Assembly (NCBI GenBank): GCA_041650935.1
Contig: JBAZKH010000004.1
Span: forward strand, 69,040-133,039
Reading direction: 5' to 3'
DNA from: Candidatus Omnitrophota bacterium
Lineage (GTDB): Bacteria > Omnitrophota > Gorgyraeia > 2-01-FULL-45-10
DNA length: 64,000 nucleotides
The notes beneath the pieces are model-generated. The model was not told the DNA's origin. It ran no database searches and saw nothing but the letters and a program-made list of their open reading frames with translations. The stretch's first letter is position 1. Every line of letters starts with the position of its first letter. Position numbers and translations under genes: made by a program. This document shows, in pieces, positions 4,800 to 64,000 of the stretch.

Positions 4800-5035
4800 C
4801 CCCGGCTTAACTATTTCCACCCCGGGGTGGAAATAGTTACCGTAGGAGCGAGGAAGTTTTACGTTTCCTGCTGTAAAAATGTGATGTGGCAATGTTGTGA
4901 GTAGGGCGTAAAAATTTCGAGGCAGCGTACGAGAAATTTTTCCGAGCGCAATTTTCACATGGTTGAAAATTGCGCGTCCCTACGAACTACATCGACATAT
5001 CGCATTTAACTGATACGAAAAATTTCGGAGTGAGT
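4800..5035 (+). promoter_or_regulatory. Conserved structured leader element, copy B (same family as 598-856), upstream of hypD
   Basis: It has the same palindrome TTTCCACCCCGGGGTGGAAA, a shared core, and a hairpin GCGCAATTTTC...GAAAATTGCGC at the position where copy A has GGTTTGC...GCAAACC. It ends CGGAGTGAGT before the ATG at 5036. Confidence 0.5.
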
Positions 5036-10311: not shown

Positions 10312-10686
10312 ATGCATCTTACCAAAAAGGGTTTTACGCTGATAGAACTAATAATAGTAGTCATAATAGTCGGTATACTTGCGGCAATAGCGGGACCTAT
10401 GATGAGCGGCAACGTGAAAAAAGCAAAGAGGACAGAAGCGATTGCGGCATGCGGCGCTATAAGAACCGCCGCCAGGTTATATATGGCCGAGAATAATAAC
10501 ACTGTGCCTACAAACTTGGCGGACGTAGTGCCTTCTTATTTGACTACTTCGGATTTGACCGGGCAATATTATGGGTCTAGTAATTATACTATATCAGGCG
10601 GATTAGTCAAAGCCGACGTTGGTACCGCCGGCGCCGGATGGGTGAATCTGAATATAGACACCAGCGGGATTTTGAAACAAGGATAA
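10312..10686 (+). CDS. Type IV pilin / pseudopilin, copy 1 (prepilin N-methylation signal KKG|FTLIELIIVV)
   Basis: It has a class III signal peptide with Gly at -1 and Glu at +5. There is a Ser/Thr/Tyr-rich C-terminal half. A strong RBS AAGGAGGG is upstream. Confidence 0.8.
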   Translation: MHLTKKGFTLIELIIVVIIVGILAAIAGPMMSGNVKKAKRTEAIAACGAIRTAARLYMAENNNTVPTNLADVVPSYLTTSDLTGQYYGSSNYTISGGLVKADVGTAGAGWVNLNIDTSGILKQG

Positions 10687-10711
10687 AGCCGGTCCATAGC
10701 TTTTTTAAAAT

Positions 10712-10779: not shown

Positions 10780-11172
10780 ATGATGAGGATAGCGGCGATG
10801 TTTTGCACTAGGCGCGCTTTTACGCTGATAGAACTAATAATAGTAGTCATAATAGTCGGTATACTTGCGGCAATAGCGGGACCTATGATGAGCGGCAACG
10901 TGAAAAAAGCAAAGAGGACAGAAGCGATTGCGGCATGCGGCGCTATAAGAACCGCCGCCAGGTTATATATGGCCGAGAATAATAACACTGTGCCTACAAA
11001 CTTGGCGGACGTAGTGCCTTCTTATTTGACTACTTCGGATTTGACCGGGCAATATTATGGGTCTAGTAATTATACTATATCAGGCGGATTAGTCAAAGCC
11101 GACGTTGGTACCGCCGGCGCCGGATGGGTGAATCTGAATATAGACACCAGCGGGATTTTGAAACAAGGATAA
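10780..11172 (+). CDS. Type IV pilin, copy 2. The mature region is identical to copy 1, but the leader differs (…RRA|FTLIEL, Ala at -1)
   Basis: The segment 10817-11230 is identical to 10332-10745. The N-terminal 18 codons differ. Confidence 0.7.
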   Translation: MMRIAAMFCTRRAFTLIELIIVVIIVGILAAIAGPMMSGNVKKAKRTEAIAACGAIRTAARLYMAENNNTVPTNLADVVPSYLTTSDLTGQYYGSSNYTISGGLVKADVGTAGAGWVNLNIDTSGILKQG

Positions 11173-54447: not shown

Positions 54448-54480
54448 TCTAGATTTTTGTACCGTTTGGGGAATTAACCT

Positions 54481-54909
54481 TCAAAGTGTCCTCAAATCTG
54501 AAATTAAACCTGTCCCCGCAAGCGCTTCTTTCTGACTATCTACAGTTATTACATCAAGTATAGATTTATCGGTTAATAAGCATCTTTCTTTATAGCTGCT
54601 CCATTGGTAATCCAACGGATCTTCTACTAAATTTGCCCTCACCGGGTTACACTCAATATAAGTTGCGCAGTTTATTAAATAACGACCCTTTATTATAGGT
54701 TTACTTTTAAATCTACCTTGCCATAGATGTCCAACCTTTTCGTATTTTGCGTTAAAATAAGCGGTATAACCGCGATTTACCCAATGCATACATTTAGACA
54801 TTCCATGCACGTCTTTTGGTTCTATTAGCAAATGCACATGGTTTGGCATGAGACAATAGGCATACAGAGCAACGGAATATTTTTTTAACGCTTTCTTCAA
54901 CATTCTCAA
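54481..54909 (-). mobile_element. IS200/IS605-family (Y1 HUH) transposase / REP-associated tyrosine transposase-like, N-terminally truncated
   Basis: It has the YCLMPNHVHLL HUH motif, HLWQGRF and a TYIECNP Tyr region. The in-frame upstream sequence retains …IIFNNDDDFRNYL, but a stop occurs before any start and the usual N-terminal ~30 aa are absent. Confidence 0.65.
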
Positions 54910-55153
54910 ATAGTTACGGAAATCATCGTCGTTATTGAAAATAATTTGTTTAATCTTAAAGAACGGGACGCTTTACATCGTGAAATCGCAAACGGTACAA
55001 AGACAACATTTTATGAAGAAGGTGTACATAAAAACATTCGGATGGGCGATGGTGTAAGTGGCGCGTGACGATTTTGGGGATAATAAAGAGGGTAACTGAC
55101 TATCCTGCCGAGAGTTATAAAAAGTAGAGTGTAATTTCAAAGAGTGAATTTAT

Positions 55154-55182
55154 AGTTGACATCTTCTTGATAGATGTCAACT
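55154..55182 (+). promoter_or_regulatory. 11-bp inverted repeat (AGTTGACATCT-N7-AGATGTCAACT), candidate operator upstream of the ATPase gene
   Basis: It is a perfect dyad lying just 5' of the predicted promoter. Confidence 0.5.
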
Positions 55183-55196
55183 TTGGTTTTAAAGAC

Positions 55197-55225
55197 TTGA
55201 CAATTTAACTAAAATGGTATATACT
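55197..55225 (+). promoter_or_regulatory. Sigma70-like promoter TTGACA-17-TATACT
   Basis: It gives a canonical hexamer pattern with 17-nt spacing, about 35 nt before the start at 55261. Confidence 0.5.
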
Positions 55226-55260
55226 CCTAATTAGTCATACCAATATGGAGGACTATCCAA

Positions 55261-56424
55261 GTGAAGAATATAACAAGAATGCTTGATATGAAGCTGCCTG
55301 ATAAACAGTCCGCTTTTTTATGGGGAGCCAGAAAAACAGGTAAGAGCACATACCTGAGAGAAAAGTTTCCGGATAGTATTGTATATGATTTTTTGAAAAC
55401 CGACGTATTTTTTGAGTTGTCAAAAAACCCATCGCTTTTAAGGGAGCAGTTGCTGTCGAAAGAAGCGGCAGAGCTTAAAAAGCCCATAATACTGGATGAA
55501 GTGCAAAAAGTACCTCAGTTACTTGACGAAGTGCATTGGCTTATAGAAAACAAGGGCTTGAGGTTTGTGCTTTGCGGTTCAAGCGCAAGAAAACTTAAGA
55601 AAGGGCACGCAAATCTATTGGGCGGCAGAGCGTGGCGGTATGAATTATTCCCGCTTGTTAGCCATGAAACAGGAAAGATTGATTTGCTGCATGTCCTAAA
55701 TCACGGTATGATACCTCCTCATTATTTACAGAATGACGAAGATTGTAAAAAATCATTGGCGGCATATGTGCAGGATTATTTACGGGAAGAAGTGTTTGCG
55801 GAAGGGTTAACGCGCAATATTCCCGCGTTCTCAAGATTTTTTGACGCTTTTGGATATTCCCATGGGGAAATGACAAATTATTGCAATATAGCCCGTGAAT
55901 GCGGCGTTGATTCAAAGACAGTTAAGGAATACTATCAGATACTTATAGATACGCTCTTGGCTGTTAGGGTAGAGCCCTATAAGAAGAGGCAATCGCGCCA
56001 GGTTATAACGAAGGCATCTAAGTATTACATGTTTGATGTCGGAGTCGCGGGTTTTCTAACCAAAAGGCACATAGCCGAACAAAAGGGCGAGGAATTCGGA
56101 AAGGCATTCGAACATTTCTTGCTTATGGAGATAATTGCTTACAAGTCTTACGCAGGTAAGGATTTTTCTGTAAACTTCTGGAGAACAAAATCGGGGATTG
56201 AGGTCGATTTCGTGCTGGGTAAGGGTGAAGTGGCAATAGAGATAAAAGGGTCAAGCCATGTTAATAAAAGAGATATATACGGGTTGAATGCTTTCACTGA
56301 AGCATTTTCGCCAAAGAAAAGCATTCTTGTCTGTAACGAAAAAGAAAAAAGAATACATGGTAAGATAGCGATAATTCCATGGGAAGTATTTTTGCATGAA
56401 CTATGGGCCGGAAAGATATTGTAA
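55261..56424 (+). CDS. AAA_14/DUF4143-family ATPase (GTG start)
   Basis: It has the Walker A motif GARKTGKST, a Walker B ILDEVQ and a C-terminal DUF4143-like region. It is 387 aa. Confidence 0.75.
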   Translation: MKNITRMLDMKLPDKQSAFLWGARKTGKSTYLREKFPDSIVYDFLKTDVFFELSKNPSLLREQLLSKEAAELKKPIILDEVQKVPQLLDEVHWLIENKGLRFVLCGSSARKLKKGHANLLGGRAWRYELFPLVSHETGKIDLLHVLNHGMIPPHYLQNDEDCKKSLAAYVQDYLREEVFAEGLTRNIPAFSRFFDAFGYSHGEMTNYCNIARECGVDSKTVKEYYQILIDTLLAVRVEPYKKRQSRQVITKASKYYMFDVGVAGFLTKRHIAEQKGEEFGKAFEHFLLMEIIAYKSYAGKDFSVNFWRTKSGIEVDFVLGKGEVAIEIKGSSHVNKRDIYGLNAFTEAFSPKKSILVCNEKEKRIHGKIAIIPWEVFLHELWAGKIL

Positions 56425-56581
56425 GATGGTGGCAGTTGCGCTGCGCATTTTAGTTTCAATCGCTGCCATACTCGTTCCTTTGGTTTTTCTTTTTAAAGGA
56501 ATATTTGGCTCTTTTATATTTACTTTCTCTACACCCCTGATCTGGCAGTTTGGTTTTTTGGGAAAACCAATCAGTTCGTTA

Positions 56582-56712
56582 GCAAGTAGCTGACGTTTAA
56601 ACGTCAGCTACCCTGTGGATAACTACGAATAGAGGATGAAATGGTTGAAAGTGAGCGAAAAGGAGCCAAAAATCCGAAGAAGCCAAGTGTATTTTTGCGA
56701 ACCTTCGGATGA
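56582..56712 (+). repeat. Repeat unit Z, copy 1. It contains the 26-bp perfect palindrome GTAGCTGACGTTTAAACGTCAGCTAC (56586-56611)
   Basis: It is 118 bp and identical to 58550-58667, apart from one mismatch. Confidence 0.8.
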
Positions 56713-56953
56713 CCGCTGGTTACAGTGGCTCGGGATGGTATTGGAGGTACTAAAGAGGATAAGTGCTTTGGAATAAATGGGTTATATAATCCCCTCAATA
56801 TCCTCACTAGTAAACTCTGTTCCGTAATTATTATCATACAAAAGTCATTAATTATGGTAAATCGTTAGGTAAGGGTAGCTTAACAATATGTCGCAAAAAG
56901 TATGCGCTTTTTGCGACACTATATTTTTATTGACGCTAAGTCGATTTATGGTA

Positions 56954-57013
56954 AAATGTCCATTAATAGAAAATGTCTACTAAATAGTGGACATTTAGAA
57001 GAGATGGACATTT
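56954..57013 (+). promoter_or_regulatory. Inverted repeats AAATGTCCAT / ATGGACATTT (x2-3) upstream of AbiEi-like gene 1; candidate autoregulatory operator
   Basis: AAATGTCCATT, AAATGTCTA, GTGGACATTT and ATGGACATTT all fall within the 60 nt before the RBS GGGGG. Confidence 0.45.
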
Positions 57014-57032
57014 ATTAAAGGGGGTAACTATA

Positions 57033-57707
57033 ATGAAGATACTATTAGGCGATAAAGCCAACATAATCATACGCGCCATGATGTCTGCGCCCGATAGGAA
57101 ATGGGTTGCCAGAGACTTTGAGAAAGAATTCGGCGTAGGCCGCGCGCGCGCGGCAAAAGTACTGTCAGAATTGCGCGCCAAGGGGTTTGTTGGAGGTGTC
57201 CGGTCTGGCAGACTTGCGTATAGTATATTACAAAATAAAGAAGAACTTCTTGAGGAGTGGCTAAAAGTCTACAAGTTTGAGCTTAACGAAGCCCATCTTT
57301 ATTACTCAACTCGAGAGGATATTCTTCCGCGGCTGAAAGAATATTTTGCTGGTAAAAAGAATCCCAATAAATACGCCCTGACGCTTCACACCGGAGCGAA
57401 TCTGATTACCAGCTATGTAAATACACAGACGATATATTGTTATTTACCAGTAGAGGATTTTAAGAGCGCTTCGCTAGACTTGCGGCAGGCGCTTGATCTG
57501 AAGGAATTAAAAACGGGCGGTAATTTTTATTTAATAAACCCGTATTATAAGAGCGCCACATTTTTCAATACTCAGATAATCAAAGGCTACAATGCTGTTT
57601 CGGATCTTCAGCTTTATTTAGATCTCTACCATTTCCCTCAGAGAGGCCGGGATCACGCTGAGTATTTACTTAAAACATTAAAAGAGGAAGGAAAACCAAT
57701 TGCTTAA
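57033..57707 (+). CDS. AbiEi-like type IV antitoxin / transcriptional regulator (pair 1)
   Basis: It is 224 aa with an N-terminal wHTH-like region. It overlaps the downstream nucleotidyltransferase gene by 8 nt. Confidence 0.55.
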   Translation: MKILLGDKANIIIRAMMSAPDRKWVARDFEKEFGVGRARAAKVLSELRAKGFVGGVRSGRLAYSILQNKEELLEEWLKVYKFELNEAHLYYSTREDILPRLKEYFAGKKNPNKYALTLHTGANLITSYVNTQTIYCYLPVEDFKSASLDLRQALDLKELKTGGNFYLINPYYKSATFFNTQIIKGYNAVSDLQLYLDLYHFPQRGRDHAEYLLKTLKEEGKPIA

Positions 57708-58491
57708 AGAATTCCCTGGAGAAAAACTCCTAATCAAAGTCATAGATGATTTGGCTGATTTTCTGCCGTATCTTGTTCTTGTCGGCGGTTGGGTGCCGTA
57801 TATCTATGCCAGATACATGTGGAAAGACGTCCCGAATATGGCAGTGACTACTGGAGATATCGATTTCGGCGTCGGTGATCACGACTTTAGCGGCAAAGAC
57901 ACTGTAGCATCCCGCGTTTTACGGTTGGGGTACGGAGAACGCCACATTTCAATGGATCGGCCGTATCCATTCGTTCCGATTGTAAAAGATATGGCTGAGG
58001 GATCGAAAGCCGAGGTCGAATTTATCACCGATCCCAAGATTTCCCGGAAAGTCATCAATAAGATAGTGGGCCAAGAGATCAAGATTAATGAAATCCAGCA
58101 TTTCAGTTTATTGCTAGGTTCTGTCATGCCGGTAAAGATGAACGGTAGAAGCATCCAGATACCGACAGAATCGATGTTCGTATTTCATAAATTATTGACG
58201 TTCATTGATCGGGAAAATAAAGCAAAATTAGGAAAGGATCTGTATTACGTTTACTACATGCTCCGATTCAGCCCGACAAAGGCACAGCTTTTTGACGACA
58301 TGATTGGCCTTATTAAGAAACGTAAAGAAGGCAAACAGGTCAAAGAGAATCTCAAAGAGTATTTTGGCAGCGTTGACTCCAAAGGGCCTTTATTTGTCGA
58401 GCAGGAAAACGGCCCGGACTCTTATGTTGCGAATGTAAGAGAAGATGCGTTTGAGAAATTTAGCGGTATCCGGCAAAGAGTTGAAAAATGA
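57700..58491 (+). CDS. AbiEii/DUF1814-family nucleotidyltransferase toxin (pair 1)
   Basis: It has pol-beta NTase motifs VGGWVPYIY and TTGDIDFGV. It is 263 aa. Confidence 0.6.
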   Translation: MLKEFPGEKLLIKVIDDLADFLPYLVLVGGWVPYIYARYMWKDVPNMAVTTGDIDFGVGDHDFSGKDTVASRVLRLGYGERHISMDRPYPFVPIVKDMAEGSKAEVEFITDPKISRKVINKIVGQEIKINEIQHFSLLLGSVMPVKMNGRSIQIPTESMFVFHKLLTFIDRENKAKLGKDLYYVYYMLRFSPTKAQLFDDMIGLIKKRKEGKQVKENLKEYFGSVDSKGPLFVEQENGPDSYVANVREDAFEKFSGIRQRVEK

Positions 58492-58568
58492 AGACCTTTG
58501 CCATCGGGGATATCCACGGCGCCTACAAGGCATTGATGCAGTGTTTTGAGCAAGTAGCTGACGTTTAA
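58488..58568 (+). pseudogene. 5' fragment of a calcineurin-like metallophosphoesterase gene (MKTFAIGDIHGAYKAL…), cut off by repeat unit Z
   Basis: There is a GDIHG motif at residues 7-11. The ORF stops after 26 codons inside the palindrome. Confidence 0.4.
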
Positions 58569-58680
58569 ACGTCAGCTACCCTGTGGATAACTACGAATAG
58601 AGGATGAAATGGTTGAAAGTGAGCGAAAAGGAGCCAAAAATCCGAAGAAACCAAGTGTATTTTTGCGCACTTTTGGCTGG
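58550..58680 (+). repeat. Repeat unit Z, copy 2 (palindrome at 58554-58579), followed by module Y (CAGATGGCCGCGTTATAGGGGGACTATGGA, 58681-58710)
   Basis: See copy 1. Module Y recurs at 62019-62048. Confidence 0.8.
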
Positions 58681-58932
58681 CAGATGGCCGCGTTATAGGG
58701 GGACTATGGAAAAGATAGTCCAATCGTTAATCAAGCTGGAGTAAGTGTAGGCAAAAAAGCAGTTTTGAGTGACATGGTTATGTCACAAAAAGTATATAGT
58801 TTTCGCGACAGGTGCAGGTTTGAAATTATGCCCCAATGACCAGTATTTGTTTACAAAACAGCAGTATTACAAACTTTGACTTTTTTCGGTAAATACTTGA
58901 CAATGGTTTAAAACTGTGCTAAATTGACTACT

Positions 58933-59697
58933 ATGGATAGACAAAATAGAAGTATAATAAACAATTTGCTTAGAAGTTGGCCTAAGAATACCATTGCTGC
59001 TTCTGGTTGGCTTGACAAGCAAGGGGTGTATCGTCAATTAGCCGGAACATATGTTAAAAGCGGATGGATAGAACGAATAGGGCGGGGCGCTTTTAAGCGT
59101 GCCGGGGAAGACGTTGCCTGGAGCGGCGGGCTATATGCATTACAAACGCAATTAAATATGTCGGTCCATCCAGCGGGGAAAACCGCTATACAGCTACAGG
59201 GGAGCGCTCATTATCTTCCTGCAAACTTACAACAGGCAAAGATCGTTCTTTTTGGGACTAAGAACGAAAAGCTTCCCGCATGGTTTAAAAATTATAAATG
59301 GGAAGTTATCGTCCGTTATGTTATGACAGGCCTTTTTGGAAAAGATGTCGGATTGGGGCTTACGACACATAATTTTGGTGATTATGAGATCAAGATATCT
59401 TCGCCTGAAAGAGCGGCTATGGAATTATGCTATGATGTTCCTATCCATGAATCTTTTGGTGAACTGGATCAGATAATGTCCAGCCTTACAACGCTTCGTC
59501 CGCAGATGGTTCAAGAACTATTAGAAAAATGCGGCTCAGTTAAGGCGAAAAGACTGTTTATGTATTTAGCCGAGAAGCATAATCACGTGTGGGTGAAGAA
59601 ATTGAACCCTAAAAAAGTTGATTTTGGAACGGGGAAGAGATCTCTTTGCGATAATGGCCGCTATGATGGCAAATATAAAATAGTCGTCCCAAAGTAA
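58933..59697 (+). CDS. AbiEi-like antitoxin (pair 2)
   Basis: It is about 255 aa and precedes a DUF1814 NTase gene by 9 nt. A TTGACA-17-TAAATT promoter lies upstream at about 58881-58909. Confidence 0.5.
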   Translation: MDRQNRSIINNLLRSWPKNTIAASGWLDKQGVYRQLAGTYVKSGWIERIGRGAFKRAGEDVAWSGGLYALQTQLNMSVHPAGKTAIQLQGSAHYLPANLQQAKIVLFGTKNEKLPAWFKNYKWEVIVRYVMTGLFGKDVGLGLTTHNFGDYEIKISSPERAAMELCYDVPIHESFGELDQIMSSLTTLRPQMVQELLEKCGSVKAKRLFMYLAEKHNHVWVKKLNPKKVDFGTGKRSLCDNGRYDGKYKIVVPK

Positions 59698-59706
59698 CAG
59701 GAGATT

Positions 59707-60642
59707 ATGGATAAAAATTTATTTTATCAGCAAGCCGACCTTTTAATATCGATTCTTCCGCATATGACGAAAGATACCGATTTTGCCATTCATGGCGGAA
59801 CTGCGATCAATTTTTTTGTACGTGATATGCCGCGTCTTTCCGTTGATATCGATCTGACATATTTACGTCTTAGCTCTCGCGAAGAGACGATAAAAGCCAT
59901 CAGCGAGCAATTAAAGTCGATATCAAGTCGAATTTCTTCGAGTATGCCATCAGTACGGATAGAAGAGAAATCCGATTCGCTGAATGGGTCTACCGCAAAA
60001 CTTTTTGTAAAACGGGAAGGCGCGATCGTTAAGGTTGAGCCGAATCAGGTCATTCGCGGCTCCTTGTTCGGCTGTGAGGAAAGGGATATATGCAAGAGAG
60101 CCGAGGAAACTTTCGAGAAATTCGCAACTACCAAGACATTGGCATTTGCCGAACTTTACGGTTCCAAGATGTGCGCGGCCCTCGATAGACAGCACCCTCG
60201 GGATATTTTCGACATTATGTTGCTTCTCGAAAACGAAGGTATTACGGAACAAGTCCGCAAGTCATTCCTTGTTTATCTTATAAGTCATAATCGTCCGATT
60301 TCAGAGTTGTTGTCGCCGAATTTCAAAGACATGAAGCCGGTTTTTGAAAAGGAATTTGCGGGAATGGCTTCTTTTGAAGTGAAGTACGAAAAATTGCTCA
60401 GTGTTAGGAAAGCCCTGGTCGAAGAAATTAATAAACTAATAACCGACGAAGAGCGCGCATTTTTGATATCGTTTAAAGAAAAAGCGCCAAAGTGGGATCT
60501 TCTGGGCGTTAAAGGAGCTCAAGATATGCCGGCGGTTAAATGGAAATTGGCTAATCTCACAAAAATGGAAAATGATAAGCACGCTCAGGCGGTCAGCCAG
60601 TTAAAGAAAATTGTAAAAAAGAATCGATCGCAGGCCTATTAA
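59707..60642 (+). CDS. AbiEii/DUF1814-family nucleotidyltransferase toxin (pair 2)
   Basis: It has the motifs FAIHGGTAINFF and RLSVDIDLTY. It is 311 aa. Confidence 0.6.
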   Translation: MDKNLFYQQADLLISILPHMTKDTDFAIHGGTAINFFVRDMPRLSVDIDLTYLRLSSREETIKAISEQLKSISSRISSSMPSVRIEEKSDSLNGSTAKLFVKREGAIVKVEPNQVIRGSLFGCEERDICKRAEETFEKFATTKTLAFAELYGSKMCAALDRQHPRDIFDIMLLLENEGITEQVRKSFLVYLISHNRPISELLSPNFKDMKPVFEKEFAGMASFEVKYEKLLSVRKALVEEINKLITDEERAFLISFKEKAPKWDLLGVKGAQDMPAVKWKLANLTKMENDKHAQAVSQLKKIVKKNRSQAY

Positions 60643-60649
60643 GAATATC

Positions 60650-60877
60650 ATGAAAAAAGAAGCATTAAAGTTATGGATGAACCTGCCGGCAGATACAAGG
60701 CGTATGCTTTTGAGTAACGTCTGGTGCGGGGAGTGCCGGAAGCCGGTGACCATCGTTGATTATCATGCGGAATTACGTAGGGTCGTGGTACTCCAAGGGT
60801 TTTGTGGTACTTGCGGTCATAAGGTGGCCCGGGTCATTGATGATTGCGGTCCGGAACCAAAACAGAATTTAGAATAA
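60650..60877 (+). CDS. Small zinc-ribbon protein (CGEC…CGTCGH)
   Basis: It is 75 aa with two CxxC pairs. Confidence 0.4.
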   Translation: MKKEALKLWMNLPADTRRMLLSNVWCGECRKPVTIVDYHAELRRVVVLQGFCGTCGHKVARVIDDCGPEPKQNLE

Positions 60878-60894
60878 AGGATTATGTCGGAAAT

Positions 60895-61419
60895 ATGCGT
60901 AAAAGGGCACTTCCCATTATACATATTATTGGCCTCCCGGGCGCTGGGAAGACAACTCTCGCGCGAAGCTTGAGTAACGCATTAAAAATGCCGATACTTC
61001 GCATAGGTTACCACAGGGCACGATTTCCACAGACGCCCATTGGCGAGGCCGATGCATGGATAGCGCTATTTCGAGAATTGTCTCGACGCAGATGGAAGAA
61101 TTGTATACTCGAAACCACTGGATTAAATTCCCGAGAAGATTTTTTGAGAACGGCTTTACCTTTCGGTCAAATATTTACGATTAAGCTGGAAGCGTCGCGC
61201 AAAATTCTTTTCTCACGGATTCGCAAAAAGAAAAAGAGAGAGCGAGGCGGGCGGTGGTCTTATAACGCGGCATATCGAAATAAGTACGAATTTGTCCGGA
61301 AACTATCCAAGCAATTTCGCAAAATTCCCGCAGACTGCCATATTAATACCAATCGATTAACTAAGGCAGCAGTATATCAGCAGGCGCTAGAGGAAATAAA
61401 TTTCATGGTATCGATGTGA
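60895..61419 (+). CDS. Small P-loop NTPase / kinase-like protein
   Basis: It has the Walker A motif GLPGAGKTT near the N-terminus. It is about 175 aa and basic. Confidence 0.5.
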   Translation: MRKRALPIIHIIGLPGAGKTTLARSLSNALKMPILRIGYHRARFPQTPIGEADAWIALFRELSRRRWKNCILETTGLNSREDFLRTALPFGQIFTIKLEASRKILFSRIRKKKKRERGGRWSYNAAYRNKYEFVRKLSKQFRKIPADCHINTNRLTKAAVYQQALEEINFMVSM

Positions 61420-61544
61420 ATAAAAGATTGACTCATCAGAAACTTTTAGATTCCGTTTCTGGATGACGTATATAATAGTGTTTAGTGTTTATTGTGTAAT
61501 GAGTTACGAGAAGTAAGGGCAGGGGAACCGAACGTTAGTGAAAA

Positions 61545-61955
61545 TTGAAGAGGAGACATGCAATGATAAGAGCGATTAAATGTGCTATGGTTTTAGGAAT
61601 AATTAGCTGTTTATTTCTCGACATTGAAATTGCTGACGCAAAAAGAGGGATCCCTGCAGCGCCTACGCCTGTAATTTACAAAGGCATAAAGTTTATTGCA
61701 GTAGATTGGCCAAAACATGAAAATGTACTCGGGAGAGATAGCGATGTATGGTATGTTGAAGGATGGGATATTGAAAAAAATAAAAAAGTATGGGAAAAAG
61801 AAGCATATAGTATTGCTATAGATAAGTTTTTGGAATACGACGTTCAAATGGTTTTTATTACTTCCCTCGATATTGAAAACAGTAAACTAATAGTAACTAA
61901 TGAGCGTGGCAAAAAATATTACATCGAAATCCCGCTAAATATTTTGAAACAATAA
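61545..61955 (+). CDS. Small secreted protein / putative lipoprotein (lipobox GIISC)
   Basis: It has a signal peptide with L-G-I-I-S-C and is a Lys-rich, AT-rich gene. Confidence 0.4.
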   Translation: MKRRHAMIRAIKCAMVLGIISCLFLDIEIADAKRGIPAAPTPVIYKGIKFIAVDWPKHENVLGRDSDVWYVEGWDIEKNKKVWEKEAYSIAIDKFLEYDVQMVFITSLDIENSKLIVTNERGKKYYIEIPLNILKQ

Positions 61956-62265
61956 TATCGCACAACCTATTGGAATATAATGAGTAAGCATAGTGTGTAC
62001 ATAAAAACCTTCGGATGCCAGATGGCCGCGTTATAGGGGGACTATGGAGAGGATAGCGGAGGCGTTGGTGAGCATGGATTAGCAGAATATTAAGGCATAA
62101 AAAAGTAAGATATTTACTCTTGTCAATAACAATATTATAAGGTATACTTCTTATTAAGAACCGCCAGAATAGACATTACTTGTCTGAATTTGTATATATT
62201 TCAGGCAGGTATATTTTTTCACCTCTTATTTTAGAGGTTTACAAAGTAACACACGGAGCTATTAG

Positions 62266-64000
62266 ATGATAACCGCCAGATCTAATGGAATCCTAAGAAA
62301 TCGAAAGCCATTCAAGGTACTAGTATGCCTAGTAACCTTGGTGGCTTTTTTAGTTAATACGGTATCCTTTGATGTTGCCTGGGCCATCGGAACGCCCTCA
62401 GGGCTCCCTGGCGGTGGCTCTGATAGAGCCGATGGCCCAGGTTTTGTTAAAGGCTTAAATGTAGATACATTTACATTACCCGAATATTTGGGGTTGGTAA
62501 GGGATTCGTTTAAAGCAAAATCAGACAAAGTTGTTATTCATATTCAGGACGCCCACTGTAACTACGCTGCCCAGAAGAAAATAGCCGAGATCATCGAATA
62601 TCTCAACAAAGAGCATGCCATAGATACTGTTAATCTGGAAGGTGGCGCTAAAGACTACGACTTATCCGTCTTTACCAACATTTACGATAAAAATATCCGA
62701 GAAAAGACAGCCGATTATTTCGTAAGAGAAGGTTTGGTTAATGGTGCGGAATATTTCGCTATTAACAATCCTGAAAAAGCGACGCTTTGGGGCATAGAAG
62801 ATACGAAGTTATATATCGACAACTTAAGCGTTTATAGAGAATCGCTTAAACATAAGAACGAGGTTGATAAGCATCTCAACGCTCTTACTCATATTCTGGC
62901 TAACCTCAAAACCAAAATTTATTCGCAGGAACTCCTCGATCTTGATACCAAATACTCACAGTATAAAGCTGGCAGCATAGAATTCAAAGACTACCTGACG
63001 TATCTGATTCAGGCAGCAAAGCAAAAATTAATAGACATCAAAGCCTTTACCAGCATATATCTTTTGAGTCAAACACTGCAGGAAGAAGGCAATGTAGACT
63101 TCAGAAAGGCGAATAACGAACGGGATGATTTAATAGATAGATTGCAAAAGAAGTTGTCAAAAAAATCGCTCGAAGAGCTCGTATTAAAGACCGTAGAATT
63201 TAGATCTGAGAGAATATCGCAGAAAGACTTCTATGTCTATCTTACCAATAAAGCCGATCACGTGGGCATTGAATTAAAAGATTTTCCTGCTCTCCAGAAA
63301 TACATCGTTTATATCTCTATGTATAATGCTATCGACAAGACGAAGATAATGGAAGAGATAGAGGCTTTGGAGAACAAAGTAAAAGACGCGCTTTATCAGA
63401 ACGATAAACAGAAAGACCTAAACAAGCTATCAAAAAACCTCGCAATACTCAAAAACATATTCAATATTTCCCTTACCAAAGAAGACTATAAATACTATAT
63501 CGACAATGAACAATCCTTTAATGCGTCAAACTATGACTTCTTCATAAACAAAGAAGCGCCTCTTTATAAGATAACAGCACAACTCGACAGAGGCATAACC
63601 AATTTAGACCAATACCGAGAAAACGTAGCCAGGTTCTATGAATATTCATTCAAAAGAGATAGCGTATTTCTAAAGAATATAAAGTTCAACCCAAATCAAA
63701 AAATAGCCGTTGTAGTTACAGGCGGATTTCATACGGAAAATCTATGTGAAATATTCAAAAAACAAAACATATCATATATCTCAATCATGCCTGCCTTTAG
63801 TAATTGCGATGGCTACCAGTGTCCGTATTTTAGGTTGTTAAGAGGCGAAGTGACTCGAATCGGGAATATGATTCATGCCGCTATTGCTTCTTTACCATCA
63901 TCAACAATGGCAGTAGCCGCTTTATCTACCGCCTTAGGCCGAGAAGTATGGTCAGAAAGGAATATCGACGATTTTAAAGCGTGGGTGGGGTTGGAAGCAA
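62266..64000 (+). CDS. Large secreted or membrane-anchored protein of unknown function. It is 3'-truncated by the window end and is not in the supplied ORF track
   Basis: It has an ATG with GGAG 8 nt upstream and an N-terminal hydrophobic segment VLVCLVTLVAFLVNTV. The frame is open with no stop for more than 578 codons, through to base 64000. Confidence 0.55.
   Translation, partial: MITARSNGILRNRKPFKVLVCLVTLVAFLVNTVSFDVAWAIGTPSGLPGGGSDRADGPGFVKGLNVDTFTLPEYLGLVRDSFKAKSDKVVIHIQDAHCNYAAQKKIAEIIEYLNKEHAIDTVNLEGGAKDYDLSVFTNIYDKNIREKTADYFVREGLVNGAEYFAINNPEKATLWGIEDTKLYIDNLSVYRESLKHKNEVDKHLNALTHILANLKTKIYSQELLDLDTKYSQYKAGSIEFKDYLTYLIQAAKQKLIDIKAFTSIYLLSQTLQEEGNVDFRKANNERDDLIDRLQKKLSKKSLEELVLKTVEFRSERISQKDFYVYLTNKADHVGIELKDFPALQKYIVYISMYNAIDKTKIMEEIEALENKVKDALYQNDKQKDLNKLSKNLAILKNIFNISLTKEDYKYYIDNEQSFNASNYDFFINKEAPLYKITAQLDRGITNLDQYRENVARFYEYSFKRDSVFLKNIKFNPNQKIAVVVTGGFHTENLCEIFKKQNISYISIMPAFSNCDGYQCPYFRLLRGEVTRIGNMIHAAIASLPSSTMAVAALSTALGREVWSERNIDDFKAWVGLEA

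What the first reader, a model, noticed from the sequence alone, without database searches (positions are those of the whole stretch)
54448..64000. AT-rich island of cassette-like genes separated by mosaic palindromic repeats
Composition shifts sharply downstream of 54.4 kb, and promoters there become textbook TTGACA-17-TATACT. Gene units are:

- the RAYT/IS200-like transposase;
- the DUF4143 ATPase;
- AbiE pair 1;
- AbiE pair 2;
- a Zn-ribbon plus P-loop pair;
- a lipoprotein;
- a large secreted protein.

These units are separated by recurring non-coding modules:

- Module Z is a 118-bp unit present twice with one mismatch (56582-56699 and 58550-58667). It opens with the 26-bp perfect palindrome GTAGCTGACGTTTAAACGTCAGCTAC.
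- Module Y is the 30-mer CAGATGGCCGCGTTATAGGGGGACTATGGA at 58681 and 62019.
- Module X is GTGTACATAAAAAC.TTCGGATG at 55022 and 61995, with a weaker copy at 56689.

Each Z copy truncates a gene. It ends an ORF at 56593, and it cuts a metallophosphoesterase gene after 26 codons at 58568. Each Z copy also contains a conserved RBS plus mini-ORF (MVESERKGAKNPKKPSVFLRTFG…).

The pattern looks like site-specific insertion of gene cassettes next to a recombination site. The mechanism could be REP/RAYT-mediated, given the adjacent Y1 transposase, or an integron-like or dif-like process. No recombinase other than the truncated RAYT is in the window.
Basis: seen in the sequence. Interest (0 to 1): 0.6.

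Follow-up and report, generated by a model that had tools for sequence, protein, structure and literature searches.

The report
Gene-cassette array bounded by miaB-start repeats
In this Omnitrophota genome, several defence and toxin-antitoxin gene units are separated by degenerate copies of the start of the tRNA-modification gene miaB, two of them beside a REP-type palindrome, which looks like repeated insertion at one attachment site rather than a REP- or integron-driven system.

Summary
The repeats are real and sit at the stated coordinates. They are two unrelated things lying side by side.

1. **The 26-bp palindrome of Z is a REP element.** It is GTAG-headed and always intergenic. It occurs exactly in 75 metagenome contigs and 13 Candidatus Omnitrophota MAGs. 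In eight related loci, copies of it flank a 163-aa REP-associated tyrosine transposase.

Each copy has a left half and a right half, and the four modules are the four combinations L1/L2 × R1/R2. Recombination has therefore occurred at one conserved core.

In other Omnitrophota, the same modules form arrays directly upstream of intact miaB. Some of these arrays have no palindrome at all. Elsewhere a large serine recombinase abuts the same miaB codons.

Best reading: a tandem array of self-promoted cassettes, mostly defence or toxin-antitoxin genes, built at a miaB 5' attachment site. The recombinase is unidentified.

The REP/RAYT insertion mechanism and membership of the integron family are not supported. 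I classify it as a new variant of a known kind, of moderate interest.

The parts
54481..54909 (-). RAYT-like Y1 transposase pseudogene. Decayed, frameshifted N-terminal coding sequence continues to about 55005. It belongs to a different subfamily from the RAYT that the palindrome flanks elsewhere.
   Evidence: Pfam Y1_Tnp 2.5e-13, covering profile positions 31-119 only. NCBIfam REP_Tyr_transpos 67.9 bits, below the cut-off of 80. There is an upstream in-frame stop. It is 52% identical to complete 158-160-aa RAYTs in L071 and L079; GGAAACAGTTTCC hairpins flank the L071 gene, with close variants beside L079's.
55010..55142 (+). Module A. It is a miaB 5' fragment encoding MKKVYIKTFGWAMV*, with left half L1 and right half R1. 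It has no palindrome.
   Evidence: nhmmer 2.6e-27. The motif scan and anchor alignment place it with intact miaB genes. The orthologous copy in L022 has the palindrome immediately upstream.
55154..55225 (+). Terminator-like hairpin (55154-55182) followed by a promoter-like TTGACA-17-TATACT (55197-55225).
55261..56424 (+). Cassette 1 cargo: an AAA_14 + DUF4143 ATPase matching PADLOC candidate defence family PDC-S01.
   Evidence: It is 93-95% aa identical to the copies in L022 and L082, which sit in different arrays.
56396..56593 (+). 65-codon ORF ending in Z. It has no homologue, and coding status is unproven.
   Evidence: It is absent from L082, where PAL follows the DUF4143 stop codon by 18 nt.
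56581..56624 (+). REP copy 1: AGCAA, then the 26-bp palindrome (56586-56611), then the arm CCTGTGGATAACT.
   Evidence: As single-stranded DNA it folds at -13.1 kcal/mol, z-score -4.4.
56641..56808 (+). Module B. It is a miaB 5' fragment encoding MVESERKGAKNPKKPSVFLRTFG*, with left half L2 and right half R1.
56889..56957 (+). Terminator-like hairpin (56889-56918) followed by a promoter-like TTGACG-16-TAAAAT (56930-56957).
57033..58491 (+). Cassette 2 cargo: an AbiEi_2-like protein plus an NTP_transf_8 nucleotidyltransferase.
   Evidence: weak matches, but above Pfam cut-offs. There is no PADLOC hit.
58488..58568 (+). 26-codon fragment MKTFAIGDIHGAYKALMQCFEQVADV*. Its start overlaps the preceding stop codon (ATGA). 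It carries the GDxHG motif of calcineurin-like phosphoesterases and is cut off at the AGCAA-palindrome junction.
   Evidence: Read from the sequence. There is no Pfam hit because it is too short. No remainder of the gene was found in 54-70.6 kb.
58549..58592 (+). REP copy 2: AGCAA, then the 26-bp palindrome (58554-58579), then the arm CCTGTGGATAACT.
58609..58776 (+). Module C. It is a miaB 5' fragment encoding ..KPSVFLRTFGWQMAAL*, with left half L2 and right half R2 (which contains Y).
58897..58925 (+). Promoter-like TTGACA-17-TAAATT.
58924..60642 (+). Cassette 3 cargo, part 1: an AbiEi/AbiEii type IV toxin-antitoxin pair.
   Evidence: Pfam 3e-50 and 2.1e-33. PADLOC AbiEi 4e-85 and AbiEii 8e-114.
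60650..61955 (+). Cassette 3 cargo, part 2: a 75-aa Zn-ribbon-like ORF, a P-loop kinase-like protein and a 130-aa small secreted protein (61563-61955).
61985..62116 (+). Module D. It is a miaB 5' fragment encoding MSKHSVYIKTFGCQMAAL*, with left half L1 (X) and right half R2 (Y). It has no palindrome.
   Evidence: In L077 a palindrome plus a module precede a 69%-identical homologue of the next gene.
62120..64000 (+). Promoter-like TTGTCA-17-TATACT (62120-62148), then the start (62266) of a 3560-aa protein that runs off the window.
   Evidence: Its N-terminal ~950 aa belong to an Omnitrophota-wide protein family.

Best explanation
**Shown.** The window is from a Candidatus Omnitrophota genome. 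The 'modules' are two different things.

1. The 26-bp palindrome in Z is one copy of a REP family.
   - Its form is GTAG-N5-G TTTAAA C-N5'-CTAC, often with TGTGGATAAC arms.
   - It is dispersed in intergenic DNA of many Omnitrophota species.
   - In related genomes it flanks a conserved 163-aa REP-associated tyrosine transposase.
2. The remainder of Z, together with X and Y, are four co-directional degenerate copies of the start of miaB, the tRNA i6A37 methylthiotransferase gene.
   - In some relatives (L033, L059) a palindrome of this family lies directly upstream of the miaB ATG.
   - Each module has a left half L, running from the miaB ATG to the ..TFGCQM codons (types L1 and L2).
   - Each module has a right half R, a frameshifted look-alike of codons ~13-30 (types R1 and R2).
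   - A=L1+R1, B=L2+R1, C=L2+R2 and D=L1+R2.
   - Each module is followed by a promoter-like site and an unrelated gene unit, and A and B also by a terminator-like hairpin.

**Inferred.** The 5' end of miaB is an attachment site.
- Small circular cassettes carry a module-like site (L+R).
- They recombine with the chromosomal site at the conserved core TTCGG.TG.C.G.TGG.
- Each insertion leaves [old L + new R] upstream of the cargo.
- Each insertion also regenerates [new L + rest of miaB] downstream, which can be hit again.
- Repetition builds a tandem array of self-promoted cassettes, mostly defence or toxin-antitoxin genes. Older cassettes are pushed away from miaB.
- The recombinase is not in the window, so it acts in trans or has been lost. 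One candidate type is the large serine recombinase found abutting exactly these miaB codons in other Omnitrophota.
- The REP is a passenger of the miaB upstream region. At most it is a local hot spot for adjacent deletions.
For: **Organism and REP**
- The palindrome is exact in 75 metagenome contigs.
- It is exact in 39 stretches of 13 GTDB MAGs, all Omnitrophota.
- None of 113 non-redundant copies lies inside an ORF.
- Nine variants keep the palindrome through paired changes.
- In eight loci the order is PAL-variant, then a 163-aa RAYT, then exact PAL. One of these RAYTs, from L037, scores 121.5 bits on NCBIfam REP_Tyr_transpos, above the cut-off of 80.

**miaB identity**
- Intact genes in L033, L059, L082, L127 and L128 start ..(K)KV[YF]I[KR]TFGCQMN. 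In L033 and L059 that start follows the palindrome arm directly.
- The L082 gene and the 120 listed homologues carry PF00919+PF04055, and sources name many of them MiaB.

**Mosaic**
- Left 23 nt: A/D 22/23 and B/C 19/23.
- Right 50 nt: A/B 35/50 and C/D 41/50.
- Cross pairs score 20-23/50.

**Arrays ending at intact miaB**
- L059: PAL-frag-PMT_2-PAL'-miaB.
- L082: frag-DUF4143-PAL-frag-B12 rSAM-miaB-x-miaA.
- L022: FeoB-PAL-frag-DUF4143-small ORF-miaB.
- L127: four modules among GT, EF-P, DUF4917/TIR/GIY-YIG and AAA_15, then miaB.
- L128: two modules.
- The nine nhmmer modules in L022, L082, L127 and L128 and the 73-codon fragment in L059 are all upstream of miaB and co-directional with it.

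**Palindrome not required.** L127 and L128 have no PAL.

**Same L/R breakpoint.** After ..CA(G/A)ATG(G), the breakpoint is shared by at least three R families across genomes. This core is the best-conserved part of the module.

**Cassette recurrence.** The R1 half, terminator, promoter and DUF4143 recur at 85-89% nt identity in three arrays with different neighbours.

**Recombinase at the site.** L124 and L125/L126 carry Phage_rep_O + HTH_17 + a 547-aa large serine recombinase. Its stop codon lies in miaB's FGCQMN codons.

**Cargo.** PDC-S01, AbiE, NTP_transf_8, DUF4062 and TIR.

**Precedent.** dusA islands replace the 5' end of dusA and leave a remnant 5' end (PMC4482086).
Against: - No intact miaB is visible in the window or in the 6.6 kb beyond it. 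The array here is followed by a 3560-aa gene, so the prediction 'array ends at miaB' is untested for this genome.
- No recombinase lies in or next to any module array examined: the window, L004, L022, L066, L077, L082, L127 and L128.
- The serine-recombinase elements of L124 and L125 contain no R1/R2/R3-type half, and no clear displaced miaB start was found at their far end.
- The left half that follows the DUF4143 cassette differs among the three arrays. The simple model would have it travel with the cassette.
- The L059/L028 fragment ends at codon 73, not at about codon 12-30.
- The shared breakpoint could reflect common descent of the R families rather than repeated site-specific cutting.
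- No strain-level gain or loss of a cassette was seen. The two samples carrying this locus are identical.
- No free or viral form was found.
Confidence: 0.55

Rival explanations
1. Homologous recombination only. The modules are simply duplicated homology. RecA-dependent crossing-over between direct repeats loops out circles. Campbell-type re-integration, or gene conversion at any module or at miaB, shuffles and spreads the cassettes. No dedicated recombinase or defined core is involved.
For: - The blocks of exact identity look like conversion or crossover tracts: Z is 119 nt between B and C, X is 22/23 between A and D, and Y plus its flank is 37 nt between C and D.
- No recombinase lies in any array.
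- The left halves do not co-travel with cassettes.
- The L059 duplication spans 73 codons at 83-94% aa identity to the adjacent intact gene.
Against: - Identity between most module pairs is far below what RecA needs. Right halves of different type match at 20-23/50.
- At least three R families in different genomes break from miaB at the same position.
- R families remain recognisable between genomes whose MiaB proteins are only ~50-65% identical. This suggests selection or transfer rather than neutral remnants.
Confidence: 0.25
2. REP/RAYT-mediated mobilisation. The palindromes act like IS200/IS605 ends, and a RAYT moves the DNA between them as single strands.
For: - The palindrome is a bona fide REP with a cognate RAYT in relatives.
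- AGCAA|PAL is a recurrent junction abutting different, sometimes truncated, upstream sequence. Examples are the window phosphoesterase fragment and the L059 AbiEi truncation relative to L028.
- A RAYT pseudogene sits exactly where the L022 orthologue has the palindrome.
Against: - Module arrays exist without any palindrome (L127 and L128).
- Modules A and D lack it.
- Homology between modules extends ~135 nt on one side of the palindrome only.
- The window RAYT is a pseudogene of another subfamily with different hairpins.
- The L059 deletion ends 7 nt outside the palindrome at an ATA(A) microhomology.
- tnpAREP has no demonstrated cargo mobility (PMC8266576).
Confidence: 0.07
3. No mobility at all. 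An ancient local duplication and decay of the miaB 5' region produced the copies, and ordinary gene turnover acts between them. The modules are inert pseudogene scraps inherited vertically.
For: - All modules share indels and stops relative to miaB.
- No recombinase, circles or strain polymorphism were observed.
Against: - The full 2x2 mosaic of halves is present.
- The same DUF4143 unit sits in three arrays with different neighbours.
- Arrays of different content lie at the same site in several species.
- Module types are conserved across genomes with divergent MiaB proteins.
Confidence: 0.1
4. The module is a cis-regulatory leader (leader peptide or structured RNA) placed in front of many genes.
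For: - In every case the module lies upstream of, and co-directional with, the next gene.
- It contains an ATG-initiated short ORF.
Against: - There is no Rfam match.
- The consensus fold is -1.5 kcal/mol with no covariation in 8 copies.
- For modules A and B, a terminator-like hairpin and a separate promoter lie between the module and the gene.
- The short ORFs end at different places.
- Modules are confined to a few clustered loci within about 0.9 Mb surveyed.
Confidence: 0.03

Closest known systems
REP / RAYT systems ('REPtrons'; GTAG-tagged REPs; PMC3733652, PMC8266576)
   Same: - The palindrome is short and begins with GTAG.
- It is multi-copy and strictly intergenic.
- Sequence variants keep the stem.
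- Copies bracket a HUH Y1 RAYT gene that passes the NCBIfam equivalog cut-off.
- It is perfectly palindromic, like 'group 3' REPs.
   Different: - It is a perfect 26-bp palindrome, so GTAG is part of the stem (CTAC at the other end). REPs are described as having GTAG as an unpaired tag.
- The 26-mer is identical across at least 13 species.
- Copy number is modest: 13 exact copies in the best-covered MAG.
- The conserved TGTGGATAAC (DnaA-box-like) arms are not a described REP feature.
- In the window it is not next to its RAYT.
Genomic islands integrated in the 5' end of dusA (Farrugia et al. 2015, PMC4482086)
   Same: - The target is the 5' end of a tRNA-modification gene.
- The island supplies a new 5' end.
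- A remnant of the old 5' end is left at the far side.
- The cargo is accessory genes.
   Different: - dusA islands are large, carry their own tyrosine integrase and are single.
- Here the units are 1.5-3.5 kb, carry no integrase, are several in tandem, and the repeated remnant is ~130 nt.
SCC / SCCmec composite islands at the 3' end of rlmH (orfX), moved by Ccr large serine recombinases (own knowledge)
   Same: - Elements accumulate in tandem at one gene-end site that is regenerated by each insertion.
- Many units lack their own recombinase.
- The recombinase found at the miaB site in L124 is most similar to CcrB/CcrC among NCBIfam models.
   Different: - The Ccr match is far below the family cut-off (213 against 900 bits).
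- The target is a 5' end, not a 3' end.
- SCC direct repeats are ~15-20 bp, not ~130 nt.
- No recombinase is linked to the module arrays themselves.
Integron cassette arrays
   Same: - One-directional array of small gene units separated by a recurring recombination-site-like module.
- Toxin-antitoxin cargo.
- The recombinase is not inside the cassettes.
   Different: - There is no IntI.
- The modules do not fold like attC and have no R''/R' boxes.
- The module lies upstream of its cassette, and the cassettes bring their own promoters.
- The module is derived from a host gene.

Membership tests
REP/RAYT (REPtron) | Palindrome of 20-50 nt headed by a conserved tetranucleotide, usually GTAG (PMC8266576 introduction) | tested here: met
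   GTAG CTGACG TTTAAA CGTCAG CTAC is 26 nt. Nine variants all keep GTAG...CTAC and the stem.
REP/RAYT (REPtron) | Many copies, mostly intergenic | tested here: met
   There are 113 non-redundant exact copies, none inside an ORF. Of the copies with a gene on both sides, 69/96 lie between co-directional genes. MAG STD1_64 has 13 exact copies. The window has only 2.
REP/RAYT (REPtron) | A RAYT (HUH Y1) gene immediately flanked by the REPs | tested here: met
   This is met in L013, L016, L021, L037, L047, L049, L092 and L104. The L037 RAYT scores 121.5 bits on NCBIfam NF047646, above the cut-off of 80. It is not met inside the window, where the RAYT is a pseudogene of another subfamily without PAL flanks.
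REP/RAYT (REPtron) | The RAYT cleaves and joins its REP as single-stranded DNA | not testable with these tools
   This needs an in vitro cleavage and strand-transfer assay.
Integron | IntI tyrosine recombinase with attI next to the array | tested here: not met
   No recombinase domain appears in window 54.4-64 kb or in the gene tables of any array locus.
Integron | attC sites: imperfect hairpins with R''/L''-L'/R' boxes | tested here: not met
   Eight module copies give a consensus fold of -1.5 kcal/mol with no compensatory pair. No RYYYAAC...GTTRRRY pair is seen by reading the sequence.
Integron | Mostly promoterless cassettes expressed from Pc | tested here: not met
   The best promoter-like sites of the region sit in front of each unit. 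Two units are also preceded by terminator-like hairpins.
Islands integrated in the 5' end of a tRNA-modification gene (dusA type) | Displaced 5' remnant of the target gene at the distal side of the inserted DNA | tested here: met
   Modules A-D and their relatives are miaB 5' fragments.
Islands integrated in the 5' end of a tRNA-modification gene (dusA type) | Intact target gene at the proximal end | tested here: inconclusive
   This is met in L022, L059, L082, L127 and L128. It could not be seen for the window's genome, because sequence beyond window-equivalent 70.6 kb was not retrievable.
Islands integrated in the 5' end of a tRNA-modification gene (dusA type) | Element-encoded integrase adjacent to the att site | tested here: not met
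   It is absent from every module array. It is present only in the module-less elements of L124 and L125/L126.
SCC-type elements (Ccr recombinases) | CcrA/B or CcrC recombinase | tested here: not met
   The L124 recombinase scores 213 bits on CcrB and 187 bits on CcrC, against cut-offs of 900. It is a large serine recombinase but not a Ccr.
AbiE type IV toxin-antitoxin | AbiEi antitoxin plus AbiEii nucleotidyltransferase pair | tested here: met
   Pair 2: PADLOC 4e-85 and 8e-114. Pair 1 is met only at the Pfam level and weakly: AbiEi_2 4e-06 and NTP_transf_8 6e-07.

The most novel reading that the evidence does not exclude
Omnitrophota may possess an integron-like gene-capture platform built on a host gene. 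The ~130-nt miaB-start modules would play the part of attC/attI. Recombinase-less, self-promoted cassettes, mostly defence and toxin-antitoxin genes, would be inserted and shuffled at one conserved core. The enzyme would act in trans and could be of the large-serine-recombinase type seen abutting the same miaB codons. The system would be shared horizontally across genera of the phylum.
Probability: 0.2. Interest if true: 0.75.

Novelty: new variant of a known kind. Interest (0 to 1): 0.55.

Why it matters
- It identifies a recurrent hot spot for defence and toxin-antitoxin genes in Omnitrophota, a largely uncultured phylum. The hot spot is the 5' side of miaB.
- It gives a sequence signature for the hot spot: the ..TFGCQM-core module with R1/R2/R3 right halves. 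This signature can be used to find such arrays and their cargo in metagenomes.
- If a trans-acting recombinase is behind it, this would be a cassette system analogous to integrons or SCC but built from a housekeeping gene's start.
- It documents a REP/RAYT system in Omnitrophota whose 26-bp palindrome is invariant across at least 13 species and carries DnaA-box-like arms. That is unusual for REPs and is unexplained.
- I found no description of either feature.

Tried and rejected
1. **Modules as the 3' end of a small gene.** I first read the modules as the 3' end of a 46-aa ORF (MKWLKV...), because C and D differ conservatively in that frame. It has no homologue in 5.8 billion proteins and no Pfam or NCBIfam match. 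That frame turned out to be the diverged miaB codons 13-30 read after a frameshift.
2. **Integron attC or structured RNA.** There is no Rfam hit, no conserved fold and no tRNA.
3. **REP/RAYT as the cassette mover.** Rejected because arrays occur without the palindrome.
4. **Assembly artefact.** Rejected.
5. **X 23-mer in GTDB genomes.** No hits.
6. **Looking beyond the window for miaB or a recombinase.**
   - The full 3560-aa protein could not be recovered.
   - Five MiaB homologues with long contigs (P0125, P0126, P0127, P0162, P0170) proved to be other genomes. They did give useful comparison loci.
   - The giant-gene homologues in L117/L118 have no module.
   - The giant protein upstream of miaB in L125 is unrelated to the window's.
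7. **Free or phage form.** The palindrome, the R1 pattern, Y and the serine recombinase are all absent from IMG/VR.
8. **Remainder of the truncated phosphoesterase.** Not found.
9. **Serine-recombinase remnants in the window or in module loci.** None.

Full report
**1. Observation**

All three repeat modules are present where stated.
- Z is 119 nt with a single mismatch (56581-56699 and 58549-58667), and identity drops after that.
- The 26-bp perfect palindrome, the Y 30-mer and the X 23-mer each occur exactly twice in 64 kb. None is expected by chance.
- An ENA contig assembled at k=141 is 100% identical to the window over 43.3-64 kb. Two contigs from an independent run confirm the HK-RAYT-module A and lipoprotein-module D junctions. 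Each Z copy has unique flanks. This is not an assembly duplication.
- The listed genes are confirmed.
- GC is 0.406 in the island against 0.492 upstream, but the decline begins near 47-48 kb.
- The best promoter-like matches of the region lie in front of each gene unit. Two units are also preceded by terminator-like hairpins. The total number of promoter-like sites is no more than chance.

**2. The palindrome is a REP**

Distribution of GTAGCTGACGTTTAAACGTCAGCTAC:
- It has exact matches in 75 metagenome contigs, many per sample.
- It has exact matches in 39 stretches of 13 GTDB species-representative MAGs, every one Candidatus Omnitrophota.
- It has none in IMG/VR.
- None of 113 non-redundant copies lies inside an ORF. 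Most sit in tight gaps between co-directional genes.

Sequence features:
- The flanks have the consensus TYTGTGGATAACT. When this is present on both sides it makes a 52-bp perfect palindrome.
- Eight further variants (GTAGGGGAGG.., GTAGGGGACG.., GTAGCGGAGG.. and others) keep GTAG...CTAC, the TTTAAA centre and the stem through paired changes.

Link to a RAYT:
- In eight loci from different organisms, a conserved 163-aa protein with the HUH motif is preceded by a variant palindrome and followed immediately by the exact one.
- One of these proteins, from L037, passes the NCBIfam equivalog cut-off for REP-associated tyrosine transposase, at 121.5 bits against a cut-off of 80.
- This is the published 'REPtron' arrangement (PMC8266576; PMC3733652).

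The RAYT-like gene in the window is different.
- It is a frameshifted pseudogene.
- It is 33-37% identical to the PAL-flanked RAYTs and 52% identical to RAYTs in L071 and L079. GGAAACAGTTTCC hairpins flank the L071 gene, with close variants beside L079's.

**3. X, Y and the rest of Z are the start of miaB**

The counterparts read MKKVYIKTFGWAMV*, ..SVFLRTFGWQMAAL* and MSKHSVYIKTFGCQMAAL*.
- Intact genes start the same way directly after the palindrome arm in L033 (MNKNKPSVYLRTFGCQMNVRDSE..) and L059. They start the same way without a palindrome in L082, L127 and L128.
- The L082 gene and the 120 listed homologues carry UPF0004 + Radical_SAM, and sources name many of them MiaB.
- Downstream of it, SPOR-miaA-hflX is conserved, usually followed by hrcA-grpE-dnaK-dnaJ.
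- After the ..CQM codons the modules depart from miaB into frameshifted look-alikes of codons ~13-30. These end near the position of the 'EGY' codons.
- My initial idea that the modules were the tail of a 46-aa protein came from reading this part in its shifted frame. It has no support.

**4. Mosaic structure**

Anchored on TTCGG.TG, the modules fall into two left types and two right types.
- The 23 nt to the left group as A=D (22/23) and B=C (19/23, plus about 100 nt of Z upstream).
- The 50 nt to the right group as A=B (35/50) and C=D (41/50).
- All cross pairs score 20-23/50.

The four modules are therefore the four combinations of two left and two right halves. This requires exchange at or near the anchor. 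That anchor (TTCGG.TG.C.G.TGG) is the best-conserved stretch in an alignment of eight copies from six loci. The same alignment shows no conserved secondary structure.

**5. The same modules elsewhere**

A nucleotide profile of the module finds copies only in a few clustered places.

| Locus | Arrangement |
|---|---|
| L059 (with L028) | AbiEi/AbiEii - PAL - 73-codon miaB fragment - PMT_2 glycosyltransferase - PAL variant - intact miaB |
| L082 | partial module - DUF4143 - PAL - module - B12 radical SAM - miaB - x - miaA |
| L022 | FeoB - PAL - module - DUF4143 - small ORF - miaB start |
| L127 | four modules separating a glycosyltransferase, EF-P, DUF4917/TIR/GIY-YIG and an AAA_15/21 ATPase, then miaB; no palindrome in 19 kb |
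| L128 | two modules upstream of miaB; no palindrome |
| L004, L066 | two modules each |
| L077 | palindrome - module - a 69% homologue of the window's giant protein |
| L130 | neither module nor palindrome near miaB |

- In the loci with intact miaB, the modules and the L059 fragment are all upstream of miaB and co-directional with it.
- The right-half types recur between genomes whose MiaB proteins are only about 50-65% identical. Window A resembles L127:4178 and L128:3394. Window C and D resemble L128:5192.
- The DUF4143 unit, with its right half, hairpin and promoter, is 85-89% identical in nucleotides between the window, L022 and L082. Its neighbours differ in each, and homology stops at the stop codon.

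**6. A recombinase at the same codons**

- In L124 and L125/L126 (two species), a 3-kb element lies directly upstream of miaB. It encodes Phage_rep_O, an HTH_17 protein and a 547-aa large serine recombinase.
- The recombinase's last 12 codons overlap miaB's ..SVYI.TFGCQMN codons in another frame. Its stop codon is the TGA inside ATGAAC, at the module breakpoint.
- The two recombinases are 82% identical. Their nearest NCBIfam models are CcrB and CcrC, far below the cut-offs.
- These elements carry no R-type half, and I could not find a clear displaced miaB start at their far end. The link to the module arrays is one of position, not of demonstrated mechanism.

**7. Explanation**

The shown facts are these.
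- The identity of the REP.
- The miaB origin of the modules.
- The mosaic of halves.
- Arrays upstream of miaB in several species.
- The palindrome is not needed for arrays to exist.
- A recombinase-bearing element lies at the same codons elsewhere.

The inference is as follows. The miaB 5' end serves as an attachment site that each insertion regenerates, because the incoming DNA carries its own miaB-like left half. Repeated insertion therefore builds a tandem array of cassettes, each preceded by [previous left half + its own right half].

This works like islands in the 5' end of dusA (PMC4482086), and like tandem SCC elements at rlmH (my own knowledge). It resembles integrons only loosely.

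The enzyme is unknown. Homologous recombination between modules is the main rival and may well contribute: it can account for the 119-nt identity of Z, the Y block and the 73-codon duplicate in L059. REP/RAYT-driven insertion is unlikely for the reasons given above. However, the recurrent AGCAA|palindrome junction next to truncated genes suggests that the REP may promote adjacent deletions.

**8. Limits**

- I could not see what follows the 3560-aa gene in this genome.
- No strain polymorphism or circular form was observed.
- All comparison loci were reached through the palindrome or through MiaB, so the genome-wide distribution of the modules is not established.

**9. Novelty**

I found no paper describing a miaB-associated cassette hot spot or REP/RAYT elements in Omnitrophota. 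A 2026 preprint on complete Omnitrophota genomes mentions hypervariable mobile-cargo loci, but not miaB or palindromes. I rate this a new variant of known kinds: target-gene-end integration arrays, and REP/RAYT.

Noticed in passing
window 10332-10631 and 10818-11117: A 300-nt direct repeat, 100% identical with 486-nt spacing, lies in a ~1-kb gene-free gap. Each unit carries the perfect hairpin AAATAGAGGCAAGATTTTTCTTGCCTCTATTT (at 10708 and 11194). There is no Rfam match. It could be a duplicated small-RNA or terminator unit, or an assembly artefact.
   Followed up: partly
window 4808-4839 and 606-625: A 32-bp perfect palindrome TAACTATTTCCACCCCGGGGTGGAAATAGTTA. Its 20-bp core TTTCCACCCCGGGGTGGAAA recurs at 606. 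This is a second palindromic repeat family in the genome.
   Followed up: no
window 1-64000: Every ORF of 150 aa or more that tiles the window is on the + strand. The RAYT pseudogene is the only clear minus-strand gene.
   Followed up: no
window 56612-56624, 58580-58592; L049:5688-5739 and 217 PAL flanks: The REP arms have the consensus TYTGTGGATAACT. TGTGGATAA is the reverse complement of the consensus DnaA box TTATCCACA (from my own knowledge). Of the 113 copies, 21 have the arm on both sides. 41 of 103 arms are followed within 60 nt by an ORF start. The function is unknown.
   Followed up: partly
L079, L080, L083, L085, L087, L100, L102, L103, L108, L110, L111, L113, L114, L116: In MAG STD1_64 and others, the 26-bp palindrome is nested inside a larger ~95-bp palindromic repeat: AAAGGGGACGGTTCTATTTTTCTGTACTTT-PAL-TCTGTGGATAAAAAATAGAACCGTCCCCTTT. 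This is a REP inside a terminator-like hairpin that is itself repeated.
   Followed up: no
window 56581-56585, 58549-58553; L004, L025, L028, L039, L059, L082: The pentamer AGCAA lies immediately 5' of the palindrome in at least 8 loci with unrelated sequence further upstream. It also occurs in front of genes other than miaB, such as tmk and a GIY-YIG gene.
   Followed up: partly
window 61524-61539; L033, L025, L066: The motif GGAACCGAACGTTAGT, upstream of the small secreted-protein gene, recurs next to palindromes or modules in three other loci.
   Followed up: no
L124:7259-10004; L125:5215-8031; L126: A compact element encoding Phage_rep_O, HTH_17 and a 547-aa large serine recombinase. Its recombinase reading frame runs into the first codons of miaB, and the MiaB frame is open upstream through the recombinase's 3' end. 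The arrangement is conserved in two species.
   Followed up: partly
L127:4305-9892: DUF4917, TIR_2, GIY-YIG and an AAA_15/AAA_21 ATPase lie directly upstream of miaB and are interleaved with miaB-start modules. This is another defence-type island at the same site.
   Followed up: partly
window 62266-64000 (continues to about 72.9 kb in L001): A 3560-aa protein. Its N-terminal ~950 aa belong to a family with more than 200 Omnitrophota members of about 950 aa and no Pfam domain.
   Followed up: no
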